A stretch of DNA of 32,000 bases, taken from Nitrosococcus oceani ATCC 19707. GTDB lineage: Bacteria > Pseudomonadota > Gammaproteobacteria > Nitrosococcales > Nitrosococcaceae. Both the position numbers and the translations under genes were made by a program. Where the stretch lies: positions 930,001 through 962,000 of the forward strand of contig NC_007484.1 in the NCBI RefSeq assembly GCF_000012805.1, written 5' to 3'. The notes beneath the pieces are model-generated. The model saw nothing but the letters and a program-made list of their open reading frames with translations. It was not told where the DNA came from and did not search any database. Below are positions 1,389-27,834 of the stretch, one piece after another (the stretch's first letter is position 1; each line of letters begins with the position of its first letter).

Positions 1389-3056
<1,668 letters not shown>

Positions 3057-3060
3057 AAGC

Positions 3061-5207
<2,147 letters not shown>

Positions 5208-5228
5208 TAAAAAGCCTATCTATGTCCC

Positions 5229-5504
5229 ATGAAGTTCATTGTTGGCTTGTTATTAGTGTTGTTGTTAGCACTTCAATACCAATTGTGGATAAGCAAGGAT
5301 GGTTTGGGGGAACTGCGGCAGTTGAGTCGTAGTATAAAACAGCAGCGGCATGAGAATGCCACCTTGATTGAACGTAATCAGGTTCTAAAAGCAGAAGTCC
5401 AGGATCTAAAAAGCGGTCTTGATGCTCTGGAGGAACGGGCACGAAGCGGGTTAGGTATGATTAAGCAAGGGGAAACCTTCTTTCAAGTTGTCGAAGAACC
5501 ATGA
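5229..5504 (+). CDS. ftsB: Cell division protein FtsB
   Basis: 91 aa with one N-terminal TM helix followed by a coiled-coil/leucine-zipper region. Sits in the conserved position between eno and ispD. Confidence 0.85.
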
Positions 5505-6205
5505 GTTCCAGCTATTGGGCGGTGGTGCCGGCTGCCGGGGTAGGGAAGCGCATGGAGGCCGATATTCCCAAGCAATATCTTCCCCTTATGGGCAAGACGG
5601 TCATTGAGCATACTCTGGCCAGGCTATTGCAACATCCCCGCATTCAGGCAGTTGTGGTCGCCGTCTCTTCCGAAGATAGGTGGTGGTCCGAACGTCTTTT
5701 CCAGGATAACGAGCGTATTATCCGGGTAACAGGTGGTGCGGAACGGTGTCATTCAGTCCGCAATGGGTTGGAGTCTTTGATGGCTTTAGCGGCGCCCGAG
5801 GATTGGGTTCTGGTGCATGATGCGGCCCGGCCTTGCCTGCGGAAAGAAGATATTGACCGCTTAATAGAGACTCTCCACGATCATCCCATGGGAGGATTAT
5901 TGGCGTTGCCTATCAGCGATACCGTCAAGCGCGCCGATGCAGAAGGATCTGTGATGGAAACGGTTGATCGGAAAGGTCTGTGGCGGGCTATGACGCCCCA
6001 GATGTTTCCCCTTGCAAAACTCTATAATTCCTTGCGGGAGGCTATTGCCGCTGGCGTGCAGGTGACCGATGAGGCTAGTGCAATGGAGTGGGCTGGATTT
6101 TCCCCCCGGCTGATAGAAGGATATTCGGATAATATCAAGATTACCCATCCCCAGGATTTGGCCCAGGCGGAGGTCTTTTTGAAACGGCAGGAGCGTGGAG
6201 AATGA
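5501..6205 (+). CDS. ispD: 2-C-methyl-D-erythritol 4-phosphate cytidylyltransferase
   Basis: [10 protein letters not shown] nucleotide-binding motif. 4-nt overlaps with ftsB and ispF. Confidence 0.93.
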
Positions 6206-6678
6206 GAATTGGGCATGGTTTTGACGCCCATCGCTTTGGTTCGACGGGAAAGTTGATTTTGGGGGGTGTAGAAATTCCCCATGAGCAAGGTTTAATCGCC
6301 CATTCTGATGGTGATGTGGTGATTCATGCCCTGTGCGATGCTTTATTGGGCGGTGCGGCTTTGGGCGATATCGGGCGCCATTTTCCGGATACTAGCGCTG
6401 AGTTTAAGAATGCGGACAGCCAAAAATTGCTTCATCGGGTGATGGTCTTGTTGAAGGAACACGGGTTTAAGGTAAGTAACGGGGATATGACGATTATAGC
6501 GCAGATTCCCAAGTTGGCCCCTTATCTTCCAGCCATGCGTGAAACCCTGGCTCTTGCGCTTGGATTACCTCTGCAGCGTTTCAATATTAAGGCGACCACT
6601 ACGGAAAGGATGGGCTATATTGGGCGGGCGGAAGGTATCGCGGCCCATGCGGTAGTATTATTGCTGGAAGAACAATAA
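6202..6678 (+). CDS. ispF: 2-C-methyl-D-erythritol 2,4-cyclodiphosphate synthase
   Basis: [12 protein letters not shown] and HSDGDV zinc-site motifs; 158 aa. Confidence 0.95.
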
Positions 6679-7754
6679 TGGAGGCGGATGAGGCTGGGCA
6701 GCAAGTGCTTGCCTATGGCGGAGATCCGCCTTTGGCAACCGCCCTGCTTCGGTGTCGCCCAGAGGACTTCCAGGTGGTTGAGGAACTTCCCTTCGCTCTC
6801 TCTGGGGAGGGCGAGCATGTCTGGCTTCTGCTTTGTAAACGTAACACTAATACTGTCTGGCTAGCGCGCCAGCTTGCCCGCATTGCCGGAGTGCGGCTAG
6901 TAGATGTGGGTTACGCAGGGCTAAAGGATCGTCATGGGCTGACCACCCAATGGTTTAGCGTTAATTTGAGTGGAAAAAAAGAGCCAGCCTGGGCTACAGC
7001 GTTGGAGTCTGCCACGGTTCAAGTGCTTAAGGTTATCCGCCATTCCCGAAAATTACAGCGGGGCGCGCTCAAGGGAAACCGTTTTCTATTGACCTTGCGC
7101 CACTTCCAGGGTGATCGGGAGGTTGTTTGCGACCGCCTGACACAGATTAAAGTTGCGGGGACTCCCAATTACTTTGGACCGCAGCGTTTTGGCCGGGGGG
7201 GCCAGAATCTGGATCAGGTGCACCGTTGGTTTAGTGGAGGCAAGCCACCCAGGGGGCGTTATTTACGGGGAATGCTGCTTTCGGCAGCCCGCGCTTTTTT
7301 ATTTAATAGGGTCTTGTCGGAGCGCGTCCAGGCAGCTAATTGGTGGCAACCACTTCCAGGCGAGGCGCTTATTCTGGATGGCAGCCATGGCTTTTTTGTA
7401 GCGGAGACCATAGATGAAGCCTTGCAAGCCCGGGTGAGGCGCTTCGACTGCCATCCCAGTGGTCCTTTATGGGGGCGAGGGGAATCTCCCGCTAAGAGGA
7501 TGAGCCGGGCTCTTGAGGAAGAGGTATTGGCGGATTACGCATTATGGCGGGAAGGTCTGGAGCAGGCAGGCTTAAAGCAAGAGCGCCGTAGTTTGCGTTT
7601 AATGGTAGCTGATTTGGAATGGTCTTTTCCTCCTGCTATGGATAGCTTGCAGCTTCATTTTCGTTTACCCGCTGGGGCTTATGCCACCACTGTATTGCGG
7701 GAAGTGGTCAGGACCCAAGAGGCGGTGGGACAGCCTTTCCTTTTAGATGAATAA
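6678..7754 (+). CDS. truD: tRNA pseudouridine(13) synthase TruD
   Basis: YAGLKDRHG catalytic-Asp motif and NYFGPQRFG motif; 358 aa. Sits in the conserved position after ispF. Confidence 0.9.
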   Translation: MEADEAGQQVLAYGGDPPLATALLRCRPEDFQVVEELPFALSGEGEHVWLLLCKRNTNTVWLARQLARIAGVRLVDVGYAGLKDRHGLTTQWFSVNLSGKKEPAWATALESATVQVLKVIRHSRKLQRGALKGNRFLLTLRHFQGDREVVCDRLTQIKVAGTPNYFGPQRFGRGGQNLDQVHRWFSGGKPPRGRYLRGMLLSAARAFLFNRVLSERVQAANWWQPLPGEALILDGSHGFFVAETIDEALQARVRRFDCHPSGPLWGRGESPAKRMSRALEEEVLADYALWREGLEQAGLKQERRSLRLMVADLEWSFPPAMDSLQLHFRLPAGAYATTVLREVVRTQEAVGQPFLLDE

Positions 7755-7989
7755 AAGAGGGGGCAATGTGAGGCGGGAGAGTAGTTGTTCTGCAAACCCG
7801 TTTTTTCTCCCCGAAAAAAGGATTTGATGCGCATCCTCTCTGGCGCGCTCCTGGGAGCATCCTTCGGATGTCTCGATTCGCCAAAAGCGAGTTCATCGGT
7901 GCGGGGATTTCCCTATCCCCTGCCTCCAACCACCCACCCCTCTAATACTTCAAGGCTTTTGCCAAGAAACTAAAAGGGAAAAGCTCCTT

Positions 7990-9666
7990 TCAATGAGAGA
8001 GTCTGGGGTGGCCCGCCGCAACTTCGGTTGCTTGTCCTTGAGCGCCAGCTTTGAGTGTGGCGATGCTCTTCCGCAGGCTTTTTTCTACCCAGCGGGTGAA
8101 GTTGGGATGAGGGATCAAGCCTTGCCCATTCATGACGTATTCCAAGCCGTCCAAATAGGTGGCATAGGGTCCAGAGCCGTAAAGCCGATTGGAAATGACG
8201 ATGGCTCGACCCTCTCCTTTATTGGCCTGTTCGATAAAAGCGCGGATTTCGCGTACTGCTTTAGCCCGCTTATCGGGCCAGTCCTCCCGTAGGGACATAG
8301 CGCGGATGTCACGGAAGGGGGACGGGAGCGTGGCTTTGATAGCAGCAATATTATGCTCCGTGATGAGGGCAAGATCAGCTGCATTCGTTTCATCACTTCT
8401 GCTGCCATGGGAGAGAAGAAGAACACTCTCTTGTAGAGGGTTTTGGCTTACTTCTAAAATCCGGTCTTTAAGAATTTCTGAGATTAAAGGATCGGTCTGA
8501 TAGCCACCGGTGGTGACAAAGCCGATGGGGGTACGCACGCGCTCAGGTACTCCGCCATGGCTGTGGGCTGGCGGCATTGGGCGGAGTCCAAGAATATAGT
8601 CGCTGGCCTCGTGCAGATGGCGTGGCAAGGCGTAGAGACGTAAAAAGGCTCCGTGGCGTACTCCCGCGGCCTCTAGCTCATTCACTGCTTGACCCATAGT
8701 GAAAGGGCTCGCCATGCCGAAGGCAAAGGCTGTCGGGTAACGCTTCACTATGCTTGGCATAGCGGCGACGATACCGTCATTGTAGGGCATAGTCGAGCCG
8801 TGGGGCATGATGATGATGCCAAGGGTTTTTTCCGTCACCGGGACATGGGTATTGATCATCCGCTGGAGCCAGGTGCGCACCGCCGGATGGGGCATGATGC
8901 TCTCGGAAATGTGAGCGCCGCTGTGAGCGTAGCGCCGCGCTAGCGAGGTTTCAAGGGACATGCGGGGGGTGAATTTGGGGCCAATGGCTAAGGGGATAAT
9001 GAGAGTTTGTCCTATCTTGGCGAAGCGGTTCACAATTGCCGCCGCTTCGGTTTCTGCCGCTTCCGCTCCCGGACCGGCTGCCGTTTTGGAGTAAGTGACT
9101 GCGACTGCCGTTTTAGAAGAGGAAATGTGGGGACGAATATCGTTGAGAAGGCGCTCGCCCAGCAATTGCAGATTGGCAGCGCTTGTCGTATCGCTGGCGC
9201 CCGATAGCCAGAGGACAAGCTGTTCTACTTTTGACGTTTTACGGGCTGAATCGATTCGGTCGAGCACTATTTCCCGCAGGAGGTAGCTTTCTCCAAGGGC
9301 GGGTGTCCAGGTGAAATTTGCTGGCGCCATAGCGGCTTCGATCTTGCCGTGGAAAAGCCCGAGTAGATAATCGTCCTCCGAGATGAAAAGGGGAATAGCG
9401 ATAATTTTATTCACGCCATGTTCATGGAAAAAACTTCGGGCCTTTTTGATGTAGGCTGCATAGCCATTCTCGATACCTTGATGGTCGGCCCCGATGAGCA
9501 GGAGCCTTACTGGGTAGTCTGGATCTAGATCTGCAGTGGCAGCAGCAAGTTCCTGGTTGCCAACGGCACCCCGGTCCTGAGCGACAACGAGAACACCTAT
9601 TTTTTCTGAAGCGCCGGCAAGGAGTGGGAAGACAGATAGAACAAGTAAGAAAAACAGCCGAGACAT
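7990..9666 (-). CDS. Secreted protein made of four tandem CbiX/SirB-like (class II chelatase fold) half-domains
   Basis: Signal peptide MSRLFFLLVLSVFPLLAGA|SE. Four repeated beta-strand starts are visible. Two keep the CbiX HGS signature (GIIIMPHGS, VLLLSHGSRSDE). Two are degenerate (GVLVVAQDRG, LVLWLSGASD). A GAGGT Shine-Dalgarno sequence lies 11 nt upstream. Confidence 0.75.
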   Translation of the reverse strand: MSRLFFLLVLSVFPLLAGASEKIGVLVVAQDRGAVGNQELAAATADLDPDYPVRLLLIGADHQGIENGYAAYIKKARSFFHEHGVNKIIAIPLFISEDDYLLGLFHGKIEAAMAPANFTWTPALGESYLLREIVLDRIDSARKTSKVEQLVLWLSGASDTTSAANLQLLGERLLNDIRPHISSSKTAVAVTYSKTAAGPGAEAAETEAAAIVNRFAKIGQTLIIPLAIGPKFTPRMSLETSLARRYAHSGAHISESIMPHPAVRTWLQRMINTHVPVTEKTLGIIIMPHGSTMPYNDGIVAAMPSIVKRYPTAFAFGMASPFTMGQAVNELEAAGVRHGAFLRLYALPRHLHEASDYILGLRPMPPAHSHGGVPERVRTPIGFVTTGGYQTDPLISEILKDRILEVSQNPLQESVLLLSHGSRSDETNAADLALITEHNIAAIKATLPSPFRDIRAMSLREDWPDKRAKAVREIRAFIEQANKGEGRAIVISNRLYGSGPYATYLDGLEYVMNGQGLIPHPNFTRWVEKSLRKSIATLKAGAQGQATEVAAGHPRLSH

Positions 9667-9747
9667 TATAATTTATTACCTCATCTCATTAAGAAAGTAG
9701 AAGGGGATCGGAGTTAGGCCCCCTGGGGTTTATTTATCCTGTAAAAA

Positions 9748-10041
9748 TTAATGCCGACGTGGCTTCATGCTGACCGGCGCTAGGGGTTCATGGGAATAGG
9801 AGCGCCCCAAGGTTAAGTGCTGCCAATCATCTAGTAGATGTAAGTAGGTTGCGCGGCATTCCGGTTCGTTTTGGACTACAGGATGTTCGCTGAGTAGGCG
9901 CAGATAACGGGCGACAGTCGAGGCCAGGTAAGGGGAAGCGTGATGGGTGTAACGGAGCATAAGCCGGCAGGTGACCGCCTGGAGTTGAATAAGACCCTGG
10001 GGTGGGAAAGTGCTGGGGGAATATGCTTTATGATCAGCCAT
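9748..10041 (-). CDS. Hypothetical 97-aa protein, His-rich, with no signal peptide, lying between the receptor and the CbiX-like gene
   Basis: Strong AAGGAG Shine-Dalgarno sequence 7 nt upstream of the ATG. Co-directional with its neighbours, 32 nt after the receptor stop and 81 nt before the CbiX-like start. No family recognised. Confidence 0.5.
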   Translation of the reverse strand: MADHKAYSPSTFPPQGLIQLQAVTCRLMLRYTHHASPYLASTVARYLRLLSEHPVVQNEPECRATYLHLLDDWQHLTLGRSYSHEPLAPVSMKPRRH

Positions 10042-10073
10042 GAGGGGACTCCTTAGTTTAAGGTGGATGGGGG

Positions 10074-12104
10074 TTAAAATTGATAGGTGAGGGCTACCTT
10101 AAAGTTACGCCCCGCCTCCTCGATAACGGAAAGATAGCGCCTGTATGCTTTGTTAGTTAGGTTATCGATACCAAAATCCATTCGTAACCCTTTGACTCCG
10201 GCGGAGGAAGGCAGCCAAGTGGCGTATAGGTCATACACGCTATAGCCAGCCGCTTCCAGCACACCAGGAGGAACGCGATCCTGCTTGGCGACAAAGCGGC
10301 CCCGTCCACCGAACACAAGCCCCCAGGGGGAGAAACGGCCGCCTAGATTGACCACGCCCTTGGCGGGTTGTACGTTGGTGAGGGGCAAGCCAGTATTGAT
10401 GTTTTCACCGTACGTGCGGCCAAAACTGGCCCCGGCGAAAAAGTACTCACTATCATAGCGAACGCCCGTTTCGAAACCGTGGAGACGCGCCTTATCAAGG
10501 TTGGCGTTTTGCGTTGTACCACCCAGGGTATTGACCTTTAGATCGATAAAATTATCGGCTTTAGTATCGAAATAGGTAAATTCCAGATTTAGCCGATCCG
10601 TTGCTGTCAGTAACTCTTCCCAAGCGCTCTTGAAGCCGGCTTCCCAGGTATAAACCGTTTCTGGTTTAAGATCTGGGTTGGGGATGAAGAAGTTATCGGG
10701 AAGACGGCCTGGAACTCCTCGGAAGTGGAGTCCTTCAGTAAAACGCTCGGGCAGGGTAGGGGCGCGAAATGCCTTGCCGTAACTGCCCCATAGGTTGAGC
10801 CAGGAAGCGAGGTGGATCATTCCGCCGATACGGGGAGAAATGGCCTCATCGGTGGTGCTCCCGCCAGCCCTCTCTTCTATCTCTAACGTATAGCGGTCAT
10901 AGCGCACTGCCGGAATAAGACTGAGGTATTGCCCAAGGGAGATTTCGTCTTGAATGTAAAATCCCCACACATCGCTGTTCGCCTTGGGAAAGGAGGGCCG
11001 AGGATTGCCATCTTCCCGCCCTTCCTCTTCATCCTTGAAGTAATTTACCCCTAAAGTAATTGTTTGCATTAAAAAATCTTGAGGATCGCCAAAATCCATG
11101 CTGTTTTGGAGGTTAAATCCGGTGGTGACAAACTCGCTGGTGGTTTGCCTGCCGCTTTCCAAGCGATTTCGGCTGTCGCGCAACTCATTGCGGTAAGCAT
11201 TGAATTTGGGTTTAAACCAAGGATGAGCAGGATCATCATAACTATACTGGAAGGTGTAGGTGCGACGTTCGATTTTGGTTGCGGCATTCTCATTGGCCCC
11301 GTCCGATACGGTTTGGGGATTGGCAGGAAAAATACCTTCGGTACTAAAGTAATCGCCGCCAATACGCAGCCGATGGGCACCGGGTTTATAACTCACGCGG
11401 GCCAGTCCGGAAAAGTTTTCCGCAGCCGAGCTGTCTAGTTCTTGGCCGCTGGCCAGCGTGATATCGTCGGAATCCCGGTAGGAAAAATTACCTAGAAAAT
11501 CCCAGTCGGAAGCCCGTCCGAACAGGGCGGCGCTGGTTGAACTCTCATTGTTAACGCTTTGGTAACCGCCCTTGAGCCGAGCGCCGAAACGTTGGCCGGG
11601 GGCAAGAAAATCGCTTGCCTCCCGGGTGGTCATGGTAACAACTCCGCCGAGGGCGCCGCTGCCGTAAATTGCCGAGGCTGGTCCGCGCAAGACATCAACC
11701 CGTTTCAGTAGATCCGGTTCGATAAAAAAACGGCCAAGATGACCAATGCTGGAATCCTGCCGGGCGCCATCGATGGTCGTCAGGATTCGCTCGCTGCTCA
11801 GACCGCGAATCGTCAGGGTTTCGCCGATAGGACGGGGTCCGGAGGTGAAATCGACGTTAGGTAAGACCTGTAAGAGATCATCCATGCTTTGGGCCTGGCG
11901 GCGCATAATTTGTTCGCTATCCAGAACGCTTACCGAAGCTGGTAACTCCGCCAAGGAGCGTGCAGTGCGGGTAACGATGACGGTCATCGGCTCAAAAGCA
12001 TGATTCTCCTCATTCAAAGACGTCTCTGTTTCTGCTTTTGCGATCATCCCGACCCATAGGGTCGGGATGATCGCAATTCCCGCGTATCTTATTGTTTTTC
12101 TCAT
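10074..12104 (-). CDS. TonB-dependent outer-membrane receptor of heme/hemoglobin-receptor type
   Basis: Signal peptide ending AKA. TonB box EPMTVIVTR and plug domain are present, and the protein ends in the aromatic ...LTYQF. A FRAPTLPERFTEGLH...NPDLKPE (FRAP/NPNL) box maps to 10668-10769. Confidence 0.92.
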   Translation of the reverse strand: MRKTIRYAGIAIIPTLWVGMIAKAETETSLNEENHAFEPMTVIVTRTARSLAELPASVSVLDSEQIMRRQAQSMDDLLQVLPNVDFTSGPRPIGETLTIRGLSSERILTTIDGARQDSSIGHLGRFFIEPDLLKRVDVLRGPASAIYGSGALGGVVTMTTREASDFLAPGQRFGARLKGGYQSVNNESSTSAALFGRASDWDFLGNFSYRDSDDITLASGQELDSSAAENFSGLARVSYKPGAHRLRIGGDYFSTEGIFPANPQTVSDGANENAATKIERRTYTFQYSYDDPAHPWFKPKFNAYRNELRDSRNRLESGRQTTSEFVTTGFNLQNSMDFGDPQDFLMQTITLGVNYFKDEEEGREDGNPRPSFPKANSDVWGFYIQDEISLGQYLSLIPAVRYDRYTLEIEERAGGSTTDEAISPRIGGMIHLASWLNLWGSYGKAFRAPTLPERFTEGLHFRGVPGRLPDNFFIPNPDLKPETVYTWEAGFKSAWEELLTATDRLNLEFTYFDTKADNFIDLKVNTLGGTTQNANLDKARLHGFETGVRYDSEYFFAGASFGRTYGENINTGLPLTNVQPAKGVVNLGGRFSPWGLVFGGRGRFVAKQDRVPPGVLEAAGYSVYDLYATWLPSSAGVKGLRMDFGIDNLTNKAYRRYLSVIEEAGRNFKVALTYQF

Positions 12105-12183
12105 CTCCTACTGTTTCCTCTAACCCTCGATGCTCTGCCATCAATAATTCATTTGCTATCCGGCAGGCGGCAAATATACGCTA

Positions 12184-12216
12184 ATTATAATTGTATGATA
12201 AATAATAATCATTAAC
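12184..12216 (-). promoter_or_regulatory. Candidate Fur box overlapping the promoter of the receptor operon
   Basis: Positions 12198-12216 read ATAAATAATAATCATTAAC, which matches 14/19 positions of the Fur consensus GATAATGATAATCATTATC (13/15 over the core). A perfect TATAAT -10 on the minus strand lies at 12184-12189, 8 bp downstream of the box. Confidence 0.55.
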
Positions 12217-12280
12217 ATTTAATTAATCAATATTTTCTTTTGCTTACTACAGAAGGGTCCGTGGCGTTTTTATTTTCCGC

Positions 12281-12311
12281 TACAAGATGGGGGTATACCC
12301 CCCATCTTGTA
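12281..12311. other. Perfect 13-bp-stem hairpin of unknown role
   Basis: Sequence is TACAAGATGGGGG-TATAC-CCCCCATCTTGTA. No U-tract follows on either strand, so it is not a canonical terminator. Confidence 0.4.
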
Positions 12312-12330
12312 ACCTTGAAGGAGTACAGGG

Positions 12331-12516
12331 ATGTATGACGACCCCCAGCGAGCGTGCCTGCCTGTGCGTGTGCGCACGCAGACAGGCGAAGTGAAGCGGC
12401 GCATCGAGCGCGGGAGCCAAGATTGCTTGCGTTTCGCCATGAATTCGCACTATGATTTTCTCGCTCTCGGAGCCTGGGGTGGGGAGCACCCGAAATCAAA
12501 GCGCGTGGAGCAGTAA
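12331..12516 (+). CDS. Hypothetical 61-aa ORF in a GC-rich patch; may be a gene fragment
   Basis: GAAGGAG Shine-Dalgarno sequence 7 nt before the ATG. Third codon positions are visibly GC-rich, unlike the flanks. No family recognised. The ORF ends 20 nt before the IS630 insertion. Confidence 0.3.
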   Translation: MYDDPQRACLPVRVRTQTGEVKRRIERGSQDCLRFAMNSHYDFLALGAWGGEHPKSKRVEQ

Positions 12517-12553
12517 AAACCCCAAGACCAAGGTCATATAGCTAAATCTATAA

Positions 12554-13078
12554 TTACTGATACGCTGCAACGATATTCTCAAGGGTTTCATGTTCGTTGT
12601 ATTCTCTGATTTTTTTGATATTTCCGAAGTCTTTTTCTATGGGGTTAAAGTCAGGGGAATAAGGGGGGAGGAATAAAATTCCCGCCCCTGTTTTTTTGAT
12701 GATTTCACGTGAAGAAACGGCTTTGTGGAACGGAGCATTATCCATGATGACAATGTGGTTGCTGTTGAGCAAGGGGCAAAGCTCTTTTTCCAGCCATGCA
12801 TTGAACACAGCCGTGTTACAGGTTCCCTCAAATAGAAACGGCGCTTCAAAGCCTTCATCCATACGGGCGGCCAATAAAGAGGTTCGCGGTCTGCGATGAC
12901 CGGAGATCAGACCATAAACACGCCGCCCCTTTGGAGCGTAAGCGTAACGACGGGAAACCTCCGGCTCAAAACCGCTTTCATCAAGATAGACAAATCTTTT
13001 GCCGCGGCGGCGATAGCGTTCACGAAGGCGAAGAAAGCTCTTTCTTTTCATATTACAGCGCTGCGTGTACCCCGTCAT
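12554..13078 (-). CDS. IS630-family transposase, catalytic DDE part, orfB
   Basis: Catalytic residues in VYLDESG (D), IVIMDNAPFH (D) and NPIEKDF (E). There are 34 residues between the second D and the E, the DD34E spacing of the Tc1/mariner/IS630 superfamily. Confidence 0.85.
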   Translation of the reverse strand: MTGYTQRCNMKRKSFLRLRERYRRRGKRFVYLDESGFEPEVSRRYAYAPKGRRVYGLISGHRRPRTSLLAARMDEGFEAPFLFEGTCNTAVFNAWLEKELCPLLNSNHIVIMDNAPFHKAVSSREIIKKTGAGILFLPPYSPDFNPIEKDFGNIKKIREYNEHETLENIVAAYQ

Positions 13079-13388
13079 TTTTTTTACGGGTTAACCCCAT
13101 TTTGTGCATCGCATGCCAAATACAGTAATACGAAACGCCAAAATGCCGGGCGCGTTCTTTATAGGTGAGAGCAGCCTTGTCTTCCACATGGACCCGTAAA
13201 GCCTCCCAGTCCAGCTTGTGTGAACGGCGAGGGCCGGGACGCTCGTAACACAGCGCATCATCCTGCGACAACCAGCGATAAATGCTCGCGCGGCCTACCT
13301 GAAATCTCCGGGCCGCTTCCGCCTTGCTTCCACCGCCCCTTACAAAATCGATTACTCGTTTGCGCAAATCAATTGAACATCTCATCAC
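13053..13388 (-). CDS. IS630-family transposase, N-terminal (HTH DNA-binding) part, orfA
   Basis: Two helix-turn-helix segments: KAEAARRFQVGRASIYRWL and YKERARHFGVSYYCIWHAM. The ORF ends just after the A8 run. Confidence 0.85.
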   Translation of the reverse strand: MMRCSIDLRKRVIDFVRGGGSKAEAARRFQVGRASIYRWLSQDDALCYERPGPRRSHKLDWEALRVHVEDKAALTYKERARHFGVSYYCIWHAMHKMGLTRKKNDGVHAAL

Positions 13389-13646
13389 AACAGTATGAAT
13401 GAATATAACACAAATGTCTCAATATTTATAAATTTAGATATACTTCGGCGAGGACTGCTGAGAAACGCGAATTCTCCAGGCCGATGAAGTTTTGTAGGAA
13501 CAAAACTGCTATCCGTCATGGCGAAACTCCAAGCAACTACGGTGTCAGAACAGGATCAGTATTGGGCCTATAACCAGCAGGATTTTACAATAGATGGGGG
13601 CTTGCTCATCCGTTTATCCAGAGCGAGGGGAGAGGGAAAGTCCTTC

Positions 13647-15362
13647 TTAAGAGGAAGCTTTTTCCCCTTTCTCTTCCCACCACCGCTGCGCTTCAGGCAC
13701 ATCCAATGGCTTGCTGATGAAGTAACCTTGGACTAAATCGCAGCCTTGTTTCTGGAGATAAAGTAACTGCTCCGGCGTTTCCACGCCTTCCGCCACTACC
13801 TTAAGATTGAGGCTATGTCCCAGGGCGATAACAGCTTTAGTAATGGTCCGGCTTTCAGAGTCCGCGGGAATGCCATGGATGAAAGAACGATCAATTTTGA
13901 TACTATCAAAGGGGAGATTTTTTAAGTAGCTTAGAGAAGCATGGCCGGTACCAAAATCATCCACGGAAACATGGACCCCCAAGATGCTTAGGGACTGAAG
14001 TGTATTGAAGGCGGAGTCCATATCTTCGAGCAGGAGCCCCTCTGTAACTTCTATTTCTAGCGCGGATGGTGCCAGTCCCGTCTTCTCTAGTATGGTAGCA
14101 ATACTCCCCGCTAAATCCGGTTGGCGAAATTGGCGGGGAGAAAGGTTGACCGCCACTCGTAACGGCCCCGCTCGAAGTTGCCGCCAGCCCATACAAGTTT
14201 GGCAGGCGGTTTCTAACGCCCAAGCGCCAATGGGGACGATAAGTCCCGTTTCCTCCGCTAGACGAATAAAGGTTTGGCGGGCGAGCATGCCATGTTGGGG
14301 ATGGCGCCAGCGGAGCAGCGCCTCAAAACCCGAGGTTCTATGAGTTGCTAGGTTCAGTTGGGGTTGGAACTGCAAGTAGAGATTATCGGTCTCAAATGCT
14401 CTTTGCAGCTCTTTGGCTAGCGCCATCCGGGGATGGGCCCGGGCGTTGATGGCGGGGGTATATAATTGGTAGTTGTTCTGGCCTTCATGTTTTGCGTGGT
14501 ACATGGCGATATCAGCATTTTTGAGCAGTTGCTCCGCTTTATCTCCATCATTGGGAAAGAGGGTAATCCCAATACTGGCACTGTTATGTATTTCATGTCC
14601 TAGAATTTTATGGGGCCTAGCTATGGCGTCAAGAAGCCGTTGGGCAAGGAGGGTCGCTTTATCAACCCCTAGAGCGGGAGTTTGAATAATAGCGAACTCA
14701 TCGCCGCCGATTCGTAGAGCGGTATCCGTGGGTTCTAAACAGTCCTGGAGAACCTTGGCGACTCGGGCTAATTCTCTATCGCCAGCCTCATGGCCAAAGC
14801 TATCATTGATTTCCTTAAGCCGGTCAAGATCTAAGCACAAAAGAGCCAGTTGTCGAGCTGGTCCCATGGCCTGTTCTAACCGATTTCGAAGCACGGTATG
14901 ATTGGGAAGTCCAGTGAGGGTATCATACTGGACAGGGTGGTGGTCCGGGTTCTCCGTGGCTTGGTTTTTCTGTAGCTGGGCACGGGATAATTGCTGAGAA
15001 CGATAAAAACTAAGGGCGATCAATGTAAGCCCCAAAATCCTTAGTGCACCCTCTATAATAGTATCCCAGAGTCGGGGTTCCTGGGTGAATTCTTCTAATA
15101 GGCCCAGCAAAAGACTGCATAGGAGTAGTTCCCAGCCTCTAATCAAGATATTGCGATCCAAGCGTACAATAAAAGGATAGGTTATGGAGGCCGCCGCTAA
15201 AATTACCGCCTCAAGAATGATTTTGCTAATATCAAAGCTAGATTTGAGAGGAAAGGCGAAGAACCAACCTAAAGCGATGCCCAATGCGAGCAGCACCAAT
15301 CCTCCGCCCCTGTGCCATAGAGACAGGGGCCTTGAGCAGGCATACTGCAATTTATTGGGCAT
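13647..15362 (-). CDS. Membrane-anchored GGDEF-EAL protein (diguanylate cyclase/phosphodiesterase)
   Basis: N-terminal multi-TM region. Motifs present: RIGGDEFAI (GGDEF), FEALLRW (EAL), DDFGTG, KIDRSF, EGVE. Confidence 0.92.
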   Translation of the reverse strand: MPNKLQYACSRPLSLWHRGGGLVLLALGIALGWFFAFPLKSSFDISKIILEAVILAAASITYPFIVRLDRNILIRGWELLLCSLLLGLLEEFTQEPRLWDTIIEGALRILGLTLIALSFYRSQQLSRAQLQKNQATENPDHHPVQYDTLTGLPNHTVLRNRLEQAMGPARQLALLCLDLDRLKEINDSFGHEAGDRELARVAKVLQDCLEPTDTALRIGGDEFAIIQTPALGVDKATLLAQRLLDAIARPHKILGHEIHNSASIGITLFPNDGDKAEQLLKNADIAMYHAKHEGQNNYQLYTPAINARAHPRMALAKELQRAFETDNLYLQFQPQLNLATHRTSGFEALLRWRHPQHGMLARQTFIRLAEETGLIVPIGAWALETACQTCMGWRQLRAGPLRVAVNLSPRQFRQPDLAGSIATILEKTGLAPSALEIEVTEGLLLEDMDSAFNTLQSLSILGVHVSVDDFGTGHASLSYLKNLPFDSIKIDRSFIHGIPADSESRTITKAVIALGHSLNLKVVAEGVETPEQLLYLQKQGCDLVQGYFISKPLDVPEAQRWWEEKGEKASS

Positions 15363-15472
15363 GAGTAACCTTTTTAATAAAGGATGGATACCATCTGCTG
15401 GCTATGAAAACTATCTCAAATACTTAATTGATAATTATACCGGCATAGCTGGTAACCTAATATTATAAAAAG

Positions 15473-16879
15473 ATGCAATATCTCCCCATATTCCTAAATA
15501 TACGCGGGCAGCAGTGCCTGGTCGTCGGTGGAGGCACCGTAGCCGTCCGAAAAGTTGCGCTGCTTCGCCAGGCAGGCGCTGAGGTTAAAGTGATCGCCCC
15601 GAAACTGCATGAACAGTTGCAAGAATGGGCTGATAAGGGAAAAATTACCGCCCAGCAAGCTTCTTTTAGTGAAACTGAAATAAAAAGCTGTTATTTAGTG
15701 ATTGCGGCAACAGATGATTCTTCTCTCAACGAGCAGGTTTATCATTTGGCCACGGCTCAGGGAGTACTGGTTAATGTGGCGGATTGCCCCCGTTTCTGCG
15801 ATTTTATTTTACCCTCTATCGTGGATAGATCGCCGGTAATAGTGGCAGTTTCTAGTGGAGGAGCTTCCCCGGTATTGGCCCGTTTGCTCCGCGCCCGTTT
15901 AGAGACCCTTATTCCCCAGGCTTATGGCCGCCTAGGCCAATTTGCGGCGCGTTATCGCAGCCGGATTAAGCAACGGATTACAGGCATAAGAGCACGGCGT
16001 ATTTTTTGGGAAAAGGTACTGCAAGGTAGCATTGCCGAAAGGATTTTCGCAGGCCAGGAGGAGGAGGCCGAGGGCGCCCTAGAAGCAGCTTTGGAAGGCG
16101 GATTTGTGCCAGAGCAGGGGGAAGTTTATTTAGTTGGCGCCGGACCAGGGGACCCGGATCTTTTAACTTTTCGCGCCTTGCGTCTTATGCAGCAAGCTGA
16201 TGTGGTTTTTCATGATCGTTTGGTCAGCCCGGAAGTGCTTGCTTTAGTACGGCGTGAGGCGGAACGCATTTATGTAGGCAAAAAGCGCTCTTGGCACGCG
16301 GTGCGACAGGAGGAAATTAATATGATGCTGGTACGCTCTGCTCGGGAAGGGAAGCGAGTGTTGCGCCTTAAAGGAGGCGATCCGTTTATTTTTGGCCGGG
16401 GCGGGGAAGAAATTGCTACTTTGGCGGCAGAAAACATTCCTTTTCAAGTGGTACCTGGAATTACCGCCGCTTCAGGCTGCGCGAGCTATGCAGGAATTCC
16501 CCTCACCCACCGTGACCATGCCCATGCCTGTATCTTTGTTACTGGACAGCTCAAAGAGGGGCGTTTGAGTTTGAATTGGCAGGCTTTGGTTCAGCCTCAA
16601 CAAACTATTGTGGTTTATATGGGCTTATCAGGACTTGAGATCCTATGCCAGGAATTGATAGCCCATGGAATGCCTGCCGTCACGCCGGCCGCTTTAGTAC
16701 AGCAGGGCACGACTTCCCGGCAGCGGGTCTTGACGGGGACGCTGGCAACACTGCCTGATATTGTCCAGGGGGAAGACATTCATGCCCCCACCTTAGTTAT
16801 TATCGGTGGAGTTGTTGCGCTTTATCCCCAGCTTGCTTGGTTCAAAGTTCCCGATAGAGAGCCGCTCGATGCACGCTAG
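15473..16879 (+). CDS. cysG: Siroheme synthase (uroporphyrinogen-III C-methyltransferase / precorrin-2 dehydrogenase / sirohydrochlorin ferrochelatase)
   Basis: N-terminal Rossmann motif VVGGGTVA. C-terminal SAM methyltransferase motifs VGAGPGDPDLLT and LKGGDPFIFGRGGEE. 468 aa. Confidence 0.93.
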   Translation: MQYLPIFLNIRGQQCLVVGGGTVAVRKVALLRQAGAEVKVIAPKLHEQLQEWADKGKITAQQASFSETEIKSCYLVIAATDDSSLNEQVYHLATAQGVLVNVADCPRFCDFILPSIVDRSPVIVAVSSGGASPVLARLLRARLETLIPQAYGRLGQFAARYRSRIKQRITGIRARRIFWEKVLQGSIAERIFAGQEEEAEGALEAALEGGFVPEQGEVYLVGAGPGDPDLLTFRALRLMQQADVVFHDRLVSPEVLALVRREAERIYVGKKRSWHAVRQEEINMMLVRSAREGKRVLRLKGGDPFIFGRGGEEIATLAAENIPFQVVPGITAASGCASYAGIPLTHRDHAHACIFVTGQLKEGRLSLNWQALVQPQQTIVVYMGLSGLEILCQELIAHGMPAVTPAALVQQGTTSRQRVLTGTLATLPDIVQGEDIHAPTLVIIGGVVALYPQLAWFKVPDREPLDAR

Positions 16880-16896
16880 ACGCTTTTTGGCGCTAA

Positions 16897-18327
<1,431 letters not shown>

Positions 18328-19571: not shown

Positions 19572-20144
19572 ATGGGCAAAGTCATTTCTGGGAAGTGGTG
19601 GATAGACGCGGATAGCGGCTGGCTTGCCAATGCCCGTCGTGTGGTCTCGCCTAACCAGGATGAGCGGCCACCAGGCATGGCTGCGGAATGGGTAGTGATC
19701 CATGGTATTAGCTTACCTCCTGGAGAGTTCGGAGGACCATGGATTGATGCCCTCTTTACCAACCGTCTTGAAGTGGCTGCTCATCCCTACTTTGATGGGA
19801 TTCGCGGGCTGCGGGTCTCCGCTCATATTCTCATTGCACGGGATGGCACTTTAACCCAATATGTGCCCTTTCATAAACGAGCTTGGCATGCGGGTGAGTC
19901 TATGCTTAAGGGGCGCTGCCGATGTAATGATTTTACTATTGGGGTAGAATTGGAGGGTGCCGATACCGTACCCTATGAAAAGATGCAATATCAGGTGTTG
20001 GCGAATCTGATAAATGTTTTGGCCGGAGCTTATCCGGCCTTTTCCAAGGAACGGATCGTGGGGCATAGTGATATCGCGCCCGGCCGTAAAACCGATCCGG
20101 GTCCTGCTTTTGAGTGGATGCGGCTCAAATCTTTACTTGCTTAG
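19572..20144 (+). CDS. ampD: 1,6-anhydro-N-acetylmuramyl-L-alanine amidase AmpD
   Basis: Motifs SPNQDERP, HGISLPPGEFGG, AWHAG and GHSDIAPGRKTDPGP. Confidence 0.9.
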   Translation: MGKVISGKWWIDADSGWLANARRVVSPNQDERPPGMAAEWVVIHGISLPPGEFGGPWIDALFTNRLEVAAHPYFDGIRGLRVSAHILIARDGTLTQYVPFHKRAWHAGESMLKGRCRCNDFTIGVELEGADTVPYEKMQYQVLANLINVLAGAYPAFSKERIVGHSDIAPGRKTDPGPAFEWMRLKSLLA

Positions 20145-20686
20145 CGGTGTTTCTCCCAAAGAATTTCTTTTGCTCCCGCTGTTCGGGTAAGTTCCCTGGC
20201 CATGACGAACAAAAGGTCTGAGAGGCGGTTAAGATATTTCAGGCTTTCCGCATTGACGGATTCCTCCTTGGCAAGGCTCACGAGTCGCCGCTCTGCCCGC
20301 CGGCAGGTCGTGCGAGCAAGGTGGCAAATACCCGCAGGAATGGTGCCTCCAGGCAAGATAAATTCCTTAAGCGGCGGTAATTCCTCATTTAGGTTGTCTA
20401 GCAGCCGCTCTAGAGCTTGAACCTGACTAGCTTGGATGATGAGAGTAGGAGGAATACTCAACTCCCCGCCCAAGTCAAAGAGCTCATGCTGGATAGGGGT
20501 TAAGCTCTGATGGAGAGAATGGGGTATGGAATGAGCAAGCAGCAAGCCGAGTAGGGCGTTTAGCTCATCAATGGTGCCAATAGCCTCGATGCGGGGATGG
20601 TCTTTAGGTACCCGCTGCTTGGGACCTAGGCCAGTAGTTCCCTGATCGCCCGTACGGGTATAGATCTTGGATAAACGGTATCCCAT
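20141..20686 (-). CDS. ATP:cob(I)alamin adenosyltransferase, PduO/MMAB type
   Basis: N-terminus KIYTRTGDQGTTGL. Also ELFDLGGEL and ARTTCRRAERR. 181 aa. Confidence 0.88.
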   Translation of the reverse strand: MGYRLSKIYTRTGDQGTTGLGPKQRVPKDHPRIEAIGTIDELNALLGLLLAHSIPHSLHQSLTPIQHELFDLGGELSIPPTLIIQASQVQALERLLDNLNEELPPLKEFILPGGTIPAGICHLARTTCRRAERRLVSLAKEESVNAESLKYLNRLSDLLFVMARELTRTAGAKEILWEKHR

Positions 20687-25877: not shown

Positions 25878-26024
25878 TATTCGCCAGGTGCCGCGCTACT
25901 GTTACTTAGGTAGTATCGCTGGCAAGCTCCAGCTATTTGAAGGAGCCTTCCGGAGCGTTTTTGCGGAGGTGGATAATTCCACCCCAGGTTCTTAATGACA
26001 TTTACGTTCCTTAGTACCACTCTA

Positions 26025-27693
26025 TTATTGTAATAGGTATTGAAATTTTTCTAAAATCAGCCGCTTTCTCGCTTCAATAAAGTCTTCAAAACGATCCAAT
26101 TCCCATAAAGTCTTATCCTTGGGAATGAGATGGAGGTCTAGATATTCATCGTCTTTATCTCTAAACCACTGCATTGGTAAAGCATCGCTTTTGCCTCCTG
26201 CACCATTTTCTTGGGTTCTCAATAACATACAGTTTGCAATTTGGTCACGGAAGCCTGTTTTATAGCGCAATATATTTCTCCGCCCCGTTTCAGGATTTTC
26301 GTCTTTCACTGTCTTCAGCAATGATTGTGGGAATATATGGTCCACTTGGGGTAAATTGTTTTCATATGCCGGTTGGTAGTTAAAATCCCGGTACCAGAGA
26401 TTGAACAACAGGTGAATATCCTTTGAGCTGTAGCGAGTATTTAAAATAGTGTCACGAGTTACTTCAAGACTACGCCCATCTGCACGGATAACACCGAATA
26501 ACTCTGTGACATCAAAATCAGAAATTTCATCGATACGCCTAGTACATTTATCAATCAGAGTATCCGGTCTCCCACCAAAGGAACCAGTGAGGAGAGTCTG
26601 TAGAATATAACTATCTAAGTTACTAATATTTCCCCATTTTCCAGGAAATTTAAACCTAAAATAAATAATAGGTATCAGACCTAGGTAAGAGGGTAAAGCT
26701 CGGTCTGTGCGAATAAAGGTTTTCCCTTGTAAAAAATCTTTTACATCGCTAATAGCGGCCGATATTTCATCCCAGCGTTCAATAATGGCCTCTCTTGTTC
26801 TACCATCGCGAAATTTTGCAATATCATAGCTAGCGCCTTTACCTAACAGGGTCAGGCAGGTTTTTAGGACAAAGTCACGGGTGAAGTGATAACCAGGCCG
26901 GTTTAATTCATCAAGCAATTCCTCCATACGTTCATCCGAATCTTCCCAACTGGAGGTTAGAAGAGAGAATAGTAGATCGGATTTACCTAGCTTGGTCCCA
27001 CCAGAATTGGCGCGAATAAAGATCTCAACGATATCATTTTCCGTATAGGCATCTGGATTATCGACACTATCCAGCTCTTGATAGCTTAATGCCTCATGCT
27101 GTACAAACATCTGGATTGCCTTCCAGACATTCTCAGTAGTTCTGGCTATGTCATTATCACTTAATTCTCTATCTGCTTTTGCAATCACTTCATCAGCAAG
27201 TCTATTAGGCATGCCGTTATAGAAAACGATCTCCTTGAAACAAATCCAAGGAAATACGGCTTTGTAATTGCTAAGAAAGCGAAAACGATAACGAACATCT
27301 TCCGGTGCGGCCGATTCGCCACTTAAAATATCAAAGTAAAGTTCCTTCTTTTCATAACTACCTTTAAGCCCGATGAACAAGCTTTGCAAGCGTTGTTGCC
27401 CATCTAAAATAAGCATTTTGGCTTTAATTATTTTCAGGCACATAAAAATCGGTCAAACGTAAACCCTGCTTGTAGTTATCAACAAATTTGCGATGCCGAA
27501 TCTCCGCCTTAGTACGCCACACTAATAAGGTGCTTATAGGATATTCCCGCATGATTGAATCAAATAACCTTTCGATTTGATCTTCTGACCAAACAAAGGG
27601 ACGTTGAATGTTGGGTAGCCAATAACCACCGTCTTTCTCGTCATTATTCAAGTACGAGACCATCTTTCTGATCGATTCTTTCTGATTCTTCAT
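26025..27693 (-). pseudogene. DUF262/DUF1524 (GmrSD-like) nuclease gene, split by a +1 frame disruption near 27424-27443
   Basis: The 89-aa ORF carries the DUF262 N-terminal motif LPNIQRPFVW. The 472-aa ORF begins with the next motif of the same domain, LILDGQQRL. It ends with the DUF1524 His-Me finger, VDHIFPQS...NCMLLRTQENGAGGKSD. The two ORFs overlap by 20 nt in different frames. The region is visibly AT-rich. Confidence 0.8.
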
Positions 27694-27834
27694 TTTTTCT
27701 TATTTCCTTTATAGCCTAGCCATTGTGTGGTTATATTCATCTCCTAGGTGCTTCGATTAACAAAGTTTACTTTGGCCGCTCATTTTAGGTGGAGCTATCT
27801 TGCTAGAATTTGTTATTTAATCACCAAGATTATC

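What the first reader, a model, noticed from the sequence alone, without database searches (positions are those of the whole stretch)
7990..12216. Fur-boxed operon pairing a heme-type TonB receptor with a secreted tandem chelatase-fold protein: candidate non-canonical periplasmic tetrapyrrole uptake/processing system
Seen in the sequence:
- Three co-directional minus-strand genes with gaps of 32 and 81 nt sit behind a promoter overlapped by a Fur-like box.
- The receptor carries FRAP...H...NPDL at 10668-10769.
- The last gene encodes a signal peptide followed by four CbiX-like half-domains.
- The locus contains no periplasmic binding protein, ABC permease/ATPase, heme oxygenase or TonB-ExbBD.

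Established knowledge:
- The FRAP/NPNL box is the hallmark of TonB-dependent heme/hemoglobin receptors.
- CbiX/CbiK/SirB/HemH class II chelatases act on the metal centre of tetrapyrroles and are normally cytoplasmic.
- A periplasmic, heme-binding CbiK paralogue has been described in Desulfovibrio vulgaris.

Inference: after import through the receptor, heme or another metalloporphyrin may be captured in the periplasm by the chelatase-fold protein. That protein could act as a binding shuttle or as a dechelatase releasing iron, replacing the usual HmuTUV-type route.
Basis: partly seen in the sequence, partly recalled or inferred. Interest (0 to 1): 0.78.

Follow-up and report, generated by a model that had tools for sequence, protein, structure and literature searches.

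The report
Haem receptor plus exported double chelatase
In the marine ammonia oxidiser Nitrosococcus oceani, an iron-regulated operon pairs a haem-type outer-membrane receptor with an exported protein built from two chelatase-like modules; this is probably a way to take iron from haem outside the cytoplasm, and it is a new variant of a principle already known from Porphyromonas and Bacteroides.

Summary
The window is Nitrosococcus oceani ATCC 19707. Three minus-strand genes, with gaps of 32 and 81 nt, follow promoter-like hexamers that overlap a Fur-like box.

- **Receptor:** it passes the curated TonB-hemin cut-off and carries FRAP..H..NPDL at 10668-10769.
- **558-aa protein (Noc_0857):** it has a signal peptide and a high-confidence model of four CbiX-like half-domains, i.e. 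two class II chelatase folds. The C-terminal module keeps the CfbA-type histidines. The N-terminal module has lost them.
- **Conservation of the pairing:** 36 of 47 well-flanked relatives have a same-strand TonB-dependent receptor within 5 kb. HmuY, TonB, Fur, ferritin, PepSY_TM or MacAB-like exporter genes are often nearby.
- **Fur boxes elsewhere:** they precede homologous operons in many lineages, with 18/19 matches in Nitrospina.
- **The 97-aa gene:** it is restricted to Nitrosococcus relatives, so the trio as such is not conserved.

The idea is not unprecedented. P. gingivalis IhtA/IhtB (FetB), D. vulgaris periplasmic CbiK and Bacteroidota HmuS already link exported chelatase homologues to haem iron. 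Whether this protein removes iron from haem or only binds it is untested.

Verdict: a real, iron-regulated system and a new variant of a known kind; interest moderate.

The parts
12198..12216 (.). Fur-like operator (ATAAATAATAATCATTAAC; 14/19 to the Fur consensus) inside a block conserved in three Nitrosococcus species
   Evidence: Consensus scan. Phylogenetic footprint; the N. halophilus version TAATGATTATCATTAT is closer to the consensus.
12173..12230 (-). Two overlapping sigma-70-like promoter candidates (TTGATT-17-TATTAT and TTATCA-17-TATATT) overlapped by the Fur-like box
   Evidence: These are consensus matches only; their number equals the shuffle expectation.
10074..12104 (-). TonB-dependent haem/haemoglobin-family receptor, 676 aa, with signal peptide, TonB-box-like EPMTVIVT, Plug and 22-strand barrel domains
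   Evidence: TIGR01785 514.9 bits against cut-off 316.85; TIGR01786 405.7 against 323.75.
10668..10769 (-). FRAP...H...NPDL haem-receptor box (residues 446-479)
9748..10041 (-). 97-aa protein with no signal peptide and no family match, restricted to the Nitrosococcus lineage; conserved LLSEHPVVQxEPECR..YLHLLDDW core; role unknown
   Evidence: Good ribosome-binding site.
9610..9666 (-). Signal peptide of the 558-aa protein (residues 1-19, predicted cleavage AGA|SEK)
   Evidence: heuristic; 42/46 relatives have the same features. pLDDT is low only in this segment.
8836..9609 (-). N-terminal chelatase-fold module (residues 20-277; half-domains 1 and 2). The 'HGS' motifs are replaced by invariant D31-R32-G33 and by S-G-A, so it is predicted to be catalytically degenerate
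   Evidence: (profile against SirB, E 1.5e-4).
8032..8835 (-). C-terminal chelatase-fold module (residues 278-545; half-domains 3 and 4). Invariant H289 (MPHGS) corresponds to CfbA His9 and H350 to CfbA His75; H420 (SHGS), M318, R460-E461-D462-W463, R494, Y496 and Y501 are invariant or nearly so
   Evidence: (profile against CfbA 6m25, E 3e-5).
7990..9666 (-). Whole gene for the exported tandem class II chelatase-like protein (Noc_0857, 558 aa)

Best explanation
This is a Fur-repressed iron-acquisition operon.

1. When iron is scarce, Fur leaves the operator that overlaps the promoter near 12.2 kb, and the three genes are transcribed together.
2. The receptor, energised by a TonB-ExbBD complex encoded elsewhere, brings haem or a close metalloporphyrin into the periplasm.
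3. The exported 558-aa protein receives it there. The protein is an internal duplication of a CbiX/SirB-type class II chelatase. The N-terminal module has lost the metal-ligand histidines and probably serves only for binding or docking. The C-terminal module keeps them and most likely runs the chelatase reaction backwards.
4. Iron is released and enters the cell through a general iron transporter. The porphyrin is left outside the cytoplasm.

Shown here: the gene layout, the receptor family, the export signal, the double chelatase fold, the retained and lost histidines, the conservation of the receptor-chelatase pairing, and Fur boxes across lineages.

Inferred: co-transcription, the substrate, the direction of the reaction, and the fate of iron and porphyrin.
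For: **Receptor.** It is a curated-threshold member of TonB-hemin and has the FRAP/NPDL box.

**Exported chelatase fold.**
- Signal peptide.
- High-confidence four-half-domain model.
- The best PDB matches are D. vulgaris periplasmic CbiK, HemH/CpfC, CbiK, SirB (TM 0.72), CbiX (TM 0.70) and P. gingivalis FetB.
- Profiles of each module detect CfbA (E 3e-5) and SirB (E 1.5e-4) by sequence. H289 aligns with CfbA His9 and H350 with His75 (ligand identity from PMC11568245).

**Gene neighbourhoods.**
- 36 of 47 well-flanked tandem homologues have a same-strand TonB-dependent receptor within 5 kb.
- Every receptor sampled has TonB-hemin as its best or near-best family. Four independent receptors pass the cut-off.
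- Neighbours include HmuY-domain proteins, hemP, TonB, ExbD, the Fur gene, ferritin-like genes, an FbpB-like permease, a second exported CbiX that passes Pfam, PepSY_TM (a possible periplasmic reductase) and a MacA/MacB-like exporter.

**Fur boxes.** They lie upstream of homologous operons in 31 loci, including 18/19 matches in Nitrospina, and as a conserved block in three Nitrosococcus species.

**Other.**
- There is no cobalamin riboswitch.
- There is no haem ABC importer or haem oxygenase in the window.
- Precedents are IhtB/FetB and HmuS (PMC12094164, PMC13065792, PMC13227078, PMC6460266).
Against: - No experiment exists on any member of this family.
- The protein fails the Pfam CbiX threshold (no hit) and the NCBIfam CfbA threshold (29.5 bits against 120).
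- The second histidine (H350) is present in only 28 of 46 relatives, so a canonical metal site is not a family-wide feature.
- The window operon encodes no reductase, although reductive dechelation needs one (PMC13227078). It also encodes no iron transporter or porphyrin exporter.
- Nitrospina homologues stand alone without a receptor.
- Disruption of cbiK in B. fragilis reportedly did not affect use of haem iron (PMC6460266).
- The rest of the N. oceani genome could not be searched for HmuTUV or a haem oxygenase.
Confidence: 0.4

Rival explanations
1. Binding shuttle only. The exported protein holds imported haem in the periplasm, as a buffer or as a carrier to an inner-membrane transporter encoded elsewhere. 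It does no chemistry on the metal centre.
For: - The class II chelatase fold is a two-lobed fold like that of periplasmic binding proteins, and weak Foldseek matches to LacI/sugar-binding proteins appear.
- D. vulgaris periplasmic CbiK and FetB bind haem or metalloporphyrins (PMC13065792).
- H350 is variable in the family, and invariant Met318, Tyr496 and Tyr501 sit near the former metal site. From general knowledge, these residue types serve as haem axial ligands.
- The N-terminal module has lost its histidines.
Against: - No haem ABC permease or ATPase is linked in the window or in any of the 80 related loci.
- Where an inner-membrane importer is linked, it is an FbpB-like iron permease.
- H289 and H420 are invariant in 46 of 46 sequences.
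- Exported CbiK homologues tested so far retain chelatase activity (PMC13065792).
Confidence: 0.25
2. Periplasmic metal-ion binding protein. The receptor imports iron or another metal complex rather than intact haem. The chelatase-fold protein binds the bare metal, as FbpA does downstream of transferrin-type receptors.
For: - The receptor also passes the TIGR01786 haemoglobin/transferrin/lactoferrin cut-off.
- The invariant His, Glu/Asp and Tyr residues resemble, from general knowledge, the ligands of ferric-binding proteins.
- Stand-alone Nitrospina genes with near-perfect Fur boxes need no dedicated receptor.
- Cupredoxin (EfeO-like), multicopper-oxidase and FbpB-like neighbours occur.
Against: - HmuY-domain and hemP neighbours and the FRAP/NPNL box point to haem.
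- The fold family acts on tetrapyrroles.
- No transferrin-like ligand is expected for free-living nitrifiers.
Confidence: 0.15
3. Forward chelatase or metal exchange in the periplasm. The protein inserts a metal into an imported or salvaged porphyrin (as FetB makes Mn-PPIX), or it maintains haem supply for the very cytochrome-rich periplasm of nitrifiers.
For: - FetB catalyses metal insertion and is needed for Mn-PPIX formation (PMC13065792).
- The family is concentrated in Nitrosococcus, Nitrospira, Nitrospina and Manganitrophaceae.
- The C-terminal module retains chelatase histidines.
Against: - Derepression under iron starvation (Fur boxes) fits acquiring iron rather than spending it.
- Linkage to ferritin, Fur, TonB and iron-permease genes fits iron uptake.
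Confidence: 0.1
4. No functional link. The chelatase-like gene merely lies downstream of the receptor and acts in cytoplasmic sirohaem or cobalamin synthesis.
For: - Some databases name the protein CbiX or sirohydrochlorin ferrochelatase.
- cysG lies about 3.4 kb upstream of the receptor's start codon.
Against: - The signal peptide is conserved in 42 of 46 relatives.
- The receptor pairing recurs in several gene orders and phyla.
- Fur boxes are present.
- The N-terminal module is degenerate.
Confidence: 0.03

Closest known systems
Porphyromonas gingivalis Iht system: IhtA receptor plus IhtB/FetB, an exported CbiK-family haem-binding lipoprotein
   Same: - A TonB-dependent receptor is encoded next to an exported class II chelatase-fold protein.
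- It was proposed to strip iron from haem outside the cytoplasm (PMC12094164, PMC6460266).
- FetB (PDB 9b86) is among the structural matches.
   Different: - FetB is a single 269-residue CbiK module, 37% identical to Salmonella CbiK (PMC13065792). It is a lipoprotein and is linked to an ABC importer, IhtCDE.
- The window protein is a tandem duplication. It has no significant sequence match to CbiK or FetB (FetB E 0.38), is soluble, and has no linked importer.
- Transcriptomic analyses found iht operon expression unchanged under iron and haem starvation (PMC12094164).
Desulfovibrio vulgaris periplasmic CbiK (CbiK-P; PDB 2xvx)
   Same: - It is the best Foldseek match (E 4.9e-4).
- It is an exported class II chelatase that binds metalloporphyrins (PMC13065792, citing Lobo 2008).
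   Different: - It has a single module with a CbiK-type active site.
- It shows no detectable sequence similarity to the window protein.
- It is not known to be paired with a haem-type TonB-dependent receptor.
Bacteroidota HmuY-HmuR-HmuS haem system
   Same: - It has an outer-membrane haem receptor, often with HmuY.
- A chelatase homologue facing the periplasm releases iron from haem. Iron is then taken up by a general transporter and the porphyrin is exported (PMC13227078, PMC6460266).
- HmuY-domain genes sit in many related loci. One locus also has CobN/ChlI/VWA genes.
   Different: - HmuS is a membrane-anchored class I (CobN-like) chelatase homologue, an unrelated fold.
- The window operon has no HmuY and no CobN.
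CfbA/CbiX-S, CbiX-L and SirB class II chelatases
   Same: - The half-domain architecture and the 'HGS' motif are shared.
- H289 and H350 align with CfbA His9 and His75.
- SirB and CbiX give the highest target-normalised TM-scores, 0.72 and 0.70.
   Different: - Those enzymes are cytoplasmic biosynthetic enzymes of one or two half-domains.
- This protein is exported and has four half-domains.
- Two of the four have lost the histidines.
- It scores far below the family thresholds.
Canonical proteobacterial haem uptake (HemR/ShuA receptor, HmuT/HemT, HmuUV, HemS or haem oxygenase)
   Same: The receptor type, the FRAP/NPNL box and Fur control are shared.
   Different: There is no periplasmic HmuT, ABC permease/ATPase or haem-degrading enzyme in the window or in the related loci.

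Membership tests
TonB-dependent haem/haemoglobin receptor (TIGR01785) | Plug domain plus TonB-dependent barrel | tested here: met
   PF07715 at 101.7 bits and PF00593 at 188.8 bits.
TonB-dependent haem/haemoglobin receptor (TIGR01785) | Whole-protein score above the curated cut-off | tested here: met
   514.9 bits against 316.85.
TonB-dependent haem/haemoglobin receptor (TIGR01785) | FRAP and NPNL boxes with an intervening histidine | tested here: met
   FRAPTLPERFTEGLHFRG...NPDL, residues 446-479, coordinates 10668-10769.
TonB-dependent haem/haemoglobin receptor (TIGR01785) | Transports haem | not testable with these tools
   Needs uptake or growth assays.
Class II chelatase (CbiX/SirB/CbiK/HemH) | Two Rossmann-like half-domains forming the chelatase fold | tested here: met
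   Model pLDDT 90.2. Foldseek probability is 1.00 to CbiK, HemH, SirB and CbiX, with TM 0.5-0.72 on the target. The fold is present twice.
Class II chelatase (CbiX/SirB/CbiK/HemH) | Passes the curated family model (Pfam PF01903 CbiX, NCBIfam CfbA) | tested here: not met
   No Pfam hit. NF002090 scores 29.5 bits and NF033198 26.8 bits, each against a cut-off of 120. Some relatives carry precomputed PF01903 or PF00762 hits, one checked being only 'faint'; a neighbouring single-module paralogue in Nitrospira passes, at 53.8 bits against 22.
Class II chelatase (CbiX/SirB/CbiK/HemH) | Metal-ligand/catalytic histidine pair (CfbA His9/His75, SirB His10/His76) | tested here: inconclusive
   In the C-terminal module, H289 is invariant. 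H350 is present in the window protein but in only 28 of 46 relatives. H420 is invariant without a partner. In the N-terminal module both are lost.
Class II chelatase (CbiX/SirB/CbiK/HemH) | Metal insertion or removal activity on a tetrapyrrole | not testable with these tools
   Needs an enzyme assay.
Exported haem-binding CbiK-like proteins (CbiK-P, IhtB/FetB) | N-terminal export signal | tested here: met
   There is an n/h/c region with AGA|S cleavage, and 42 of 46 relatives have the same. This is a heuristic, not SignalP.
Exported haem-binding CbiK-like proteins (CbiK-P, IhtB/FetB) | Sequence membership of the CbiK lineage | tested here: not met
   phmmer against PDB sequences found nothing. 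With a profile, FetB scores E 0.38. The affinities are with CbiX/CfbA/SirB instead.
Exported haem-binding CbiK-like proteins (CbiK-P, IhtB/FetB) | Genetic linkage to a TonB-dependent receptor (Iht type) | tested here: met
   The genes share an operon in the window. 36 of 47 related loci show the linkage.
Exported haem-binding CbiK-like proteins (CbiK-P, IhtB/FetB) | Binds haem | not testable with these tools
   Needs spectroscopy on purified protein.
Fur regulon | Fur box overlapping the promoter | tested here: inconclusive
   The match is 14/19, no better than three other places in the window. It is, however, conserved in three species, and Fur boxes of up to 18/19 precede homologues in 31 loci. 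Fur binding and iron response were not measured.
Canonical HmuTUV / haem oxygenase route | Linked periplasmic binding protein, ABC permease/ATPase and haem-degrading enzyme | tested here: not met
   None is present in the window or in the related loci. The rest of the genome was not examined.

The most novel reading that the evidence does not exclude
A previously unrecognised, Fur-controlled family of exported tandem class II chelatases performs periplasmic iron extraction from haem. One module is a pseudo-enzyme and the other is active. On this reading the family gives the main lineages of nitrifying bacteria (Nitrosococcus, Nitrospira including comammox-type genomes, Nitrospina) and related chemolithotrophs a haem-iron route that needs neither a haem ABC importer nor a haem oxygenase. 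In Nitrospira, the linked PepSY_TM protein would supply electrons and a MacAB-like pump would dispose of the porphyrin.
Probability: 0.3. Interest if true: 0.75.

Novelty: new variant of a known kind. Interest (0 to 1): 0.55.

Why it matters
Nitrifiers need a great deal of iron and haem, and they often live where iron is scarce. How they obtain iron is poorly known. If this family strips iron from haem in the periplasm, three things follow:
- Haem would be identified as an iron source for key players in the nitrogen cycle.
- A class II counterpart would be added to the recently described class I (HmuS) haem dechelatase.
- A function would be assigned to several hundred proteins now labelled 'hypothetical' or mislabelled as cobalamin or sirohaem biosynthesis enzymes.

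The degenerate N-terminal module is also a clean case of a duplicated enzyme fold in which one copy has lost its catalytic residues.

Tried and rejected
- **Cobalamin uptake:** no cobalamin riboswitch or any other Rfam element lies upstream of the receptor, and the BtuB models score far below cut-off.
- **HmuY remnant:** tblastn of HmuY and of the small neighbouring ORFs from related loci against 7900-12300 gave nothing significant, so the 97-aa gene is not a decayed HmuY.
- **Conserved trio:** the 97-aa protein has only three database relatives, all Nitrosococcus-like, plus one weak match in L007 at a different position.
- **Single-sequence searches:** phmmer of the 558-aa protein against PDB sequences found nothing. 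Only module profiles and the structure model revealed the relationship.
- **Link to experiments in Stenotrophomonas:** the Fur-regulated hemP-hemA-smlt0796-smlt0797 operon has two unexplained genes that are dispensable for hemin use (PMC9241770). A Thermomonas locus fuses DUF6607 to a chelatase module. I could not obtain the Smlt0797 sequence, so the link is unverified and not used as evidence.
- **N. oceani genome paper:** Klotz 2006 is not in the held library, and no paper mentions Noc_0857 to Noc_0859.
Full report
**Origin and gene layout.** The 558-aa product is 100% identical to hypothetical protein Noc_0857 of Nitrosococcus oceani ATCC 19707. On the minus strand lie a 676-aa gene (10074-12104), a 97-aa gene (9748-10041) and the 558-aa gene (7990-9666), separated by 32 and 81 nt. 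The first two have AGGAG-type ribosome-binding sites. Downstream, the operon converges on truD. Upstream lies one of two identical IS630-type copies (12537 onwards). N. watsonii lacks this insertion; there the GGDEF-EAL gene directly precedes the receptor. The window holds no TonB, ExbBD, ABC importer or haem oxygenase gene.

**The receptor.**
- It has Plug and barrel domains.
- It scores 514.9 bits on TIGR01785 TonB-hemin (cut-off 316.85) and 405.7 on TIGR01786 (cut-off 323.75).
- FRAP..H..NPDL lies exactly at 10668-10769.
- No riboswitch precedes it.

**Regulation.** The Fur-like box at 12198-12216 matches 14 of 19 consensus positions. It overlaps two promoter-like hexamer pairs. Alone this is weak, because three other places in the window also reach 14/19. 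Two comparisons strengthen it.
- The block ATTGATT..TAATGATTAT.ATTTAT is conserved upstream of the orthologous receptors of N. watsonii and N. halophilus, while the flanks diverge. The N. halophilus version is closer to the consensus.
- In 1.26 Mb of related loci, 31 of 73 sites with at least 14/19 lie within 400 bp upstream of the chelatase-like gene or its operon partners. These include 18/19 matches upstream of the stand-alone Nitrospina genes (L001, L023) and 17/19 in L008 and L080. By my own estimate, an 18/19 match is expected about 5e-4 times by chance in that much sequence.

Fur control of this family is therefore well supported by comparison, though it has not been measured.

**The 558-aa protein.**
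- Pfam finds nothing. NCBIfam gives sub-threshold CfbA/CbiX hits to residues 283-404.
- The N-terminus is a typical signal peptide, as in 42 of 46 relatives.
- AlphaFold with 46 homologues gives pLDDT 90.2 and pTM 0.87, with four beta-alpha half-domains.
- Foldseek ranks D. vulgaris periplasmic CbiK first. B. subtilis ferrochelatase, Salmonella CbiK, DR2241, SirB (TM 0.72), CbiX (TM 0.70) and P. gingivalis FetB follow.
- A profile of the C-terminal module finds CfbA (E 3e-5). A profile of the N-terminal module finds SirB (E 1.5e-4).
- The two modules are paralogues. The C-terminal module matches the N-terminal modules of relatives at about 23% identity.
- Aligned to the CfbA half-unit, half-domains 3 and 4 keep 'HGS' (H289 and H420, both invariant). 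H350 sits at the position of CfbA His75, as His in 28 of 46 sequences. Invariant M318 sits at the position of Glu42. Half-domains 1 and 2 carry invariant D-R-G and S-G-A instead. The CfbA metal ligands are taken from PMC11568245.
- The C-terminal module is the better conserved (35-53% identity against 24-38%).

**Family and neighbourhoods.** The profile finds 279 representatives at E<=1e-30 among 1.84 billion. Many are single modules of about 300 aa that correspond to the C-terminal half. Hosts are mostly Nitrospira, other Nitrospirales, Nitrospina, Manganitrophaceae and uncultured Gammaproteobacteria. Of 47 tandem-type loci with at least 4 kb on both sides, 36 have a same-strand TonB-dependent receptor within 5 kb. 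Most exceptions are Nitrospina. Four gene orders recur:
- (hemP)-receptor-HmuY-(cupredoxin or multicopper oxidase)-chelatase.
- AraC-MacA-like-ABC-FtsX-FtsX-TonB-chelatase-receptor-exported single CbiX-PepSY_TM.
- receptor-spermidine-synthase/TPR protein-chelatase-HD-GYP.
- chelatase-receptor-HmuY.

Every receptor sampled has TonB-hemin as its best or near-best family. Those of L006, L007 and L032 pass the cut-off. Ferritin-like genes, Fur genes, ExbD and an FbpB-like permease also recur. The 97-aa gene does not recur.

**Mechanism.** The most economical reading has four steps.
1. The operon is derepressed under iron starvation.
2. Haem is imported across the outer membrane.
3. The exported protein captures it.
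4. The histidine-bearing C-terminal module removes the iron, and only iron crosses the inner membrane.

This fits four observations: no haem importer or oxygenase is linked anywhere; iron-permease, ferritin and Fur genes are linked; a possible membrane reductase (PepSY_TM) is present; and a MacAB-like exporter is present in the Nitrospira loci. It parallels the need for periplasmic reducing power and the porphyrin export described for HmuS (PMC13227078, PMC6460266). It remains an inference.

A pure binding role, binding of bare metal, and a forward chelatase role are not excluded. The variable H350, the lack of a reductase in the window operon and the receptor-less Nitrospina genes all count against a simple story.

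**Comparison with known systems.** The principle is known. P. gingivalis IhtA plus the CbiK-like lipoprotein IhtB/FetB has been proposed as a reverse ferrochelatase system (PMC12094164, PMC6460266). FetB is now known to be a chelatase structurally close to D. vulgaris periplasmic CbiK (PMC13065792). The present protein differs in five ways:
- It belongs to the CbiX/SirB side of the superfamily.
- It fails the curated family thresholds.
- It is a tandem duplication with one degenerate module.
- It is soluble.
- It occurs in chemolithoautotrophs behind clear Fur boxes.

I rate it a new variant of a known kind, with moderate interest.

Noticed in passing
window 12537-13388 and 28893-29744: Two copies of an IS630-type element, each with 111-aa and 174-aa overlapping ORFs; the 300 nt reported are 100% identical. 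One copy sits between the GGDEF-EAL gene and the receptor promoter. N. watsonii has no insertion at that place.
   Followed up: partly
window 15473-16879 (+) and 20141-20686 (-): Other tetrapyrrole genes lie nearby. Sirohaem synthase cysG lies about 3.4 kb upstream of the receptor's start codon, and a cob(I)alamin adenosyltransferase lies further on. cysG is also near the operon in N. watsonii. This is probably coincidental.
   Followed up: no
window 26000-29000: A low-GC stretch (about 40% against about 52% elsewhere) carries a GmrSD-type restriction endonuclease gene (26025-27443). It lies next to a tRNA gene (28485-28558) and the second IS copy, and looks like an acquired island.
   Followed up: no
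L080 8469-10849 (Thermomonas sp.): The locus reads receptor, 189-aa ORF, then a secreted protein that fuses DUF6607 (PF20311) to a single chelatase-like module. DUF6607 proteins of about 335 aa are common in Lysobacteraceae. They may correspond to the unexplained Smlt0797 of the Fur-regulated haem operon of S. maltophilia (PMC9241770), but this is unverified.
   Followed up: partly
L020 3668-15421 and similar Nitrospira loci (L015, L024, L026, L033): A long operon reads AraC, MacA-like adaptor, ABC ATPase, two FtsX permeases, TonB, tandem chelatase, receptor, a second exported single-module CbiX with intact HGS and PH motifs, and PepSY_TM. Together these would be enough for reductive periplasmic dechelation plus porphyrin efflux.
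   Followed up: partly
L001 7804-7822 and L023 9462-9480 (Nitrospina): Near-perfect Fur boxes (18/19) lie upstream of stand-alone homologues that have no receptor nearby. In L001 a called 36-aa ORF lies between the box and the gene.
   Followed up: partly
L003 10487-16942: Next to a hemP-receptor-145aa-HmuY-chelatase operon, on the opposite strand, lie CobW, a 1242-aa CobN/Mg-chelatase homologue, a MoxR/ChlI-type ATPase and a VWA protein. This set recalls the HmuS system of Bacteroidota.
   Followed up: no
L085 (N. halophilus) 2233-17674: The orthologous operon sits in a larger iron island. It has two further receptor genes, an HNH protein, an MsbA-like fused ABC exporter and TonB-ExbD-ExbB within 8 kb. 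None of these is present in the N. oceani window.
   Followed up: no
L010, L012, L014, L017 and L039 (neighbours of the chelatase gene): Two-domain multicopper-oxidase-like proteins occur, as do HmuY proteins with an N-terminal EfeO-like cupredoxin domain. They hint at iron redox chemistry or copper involvement in some versions of the system.
   Followed up: partly
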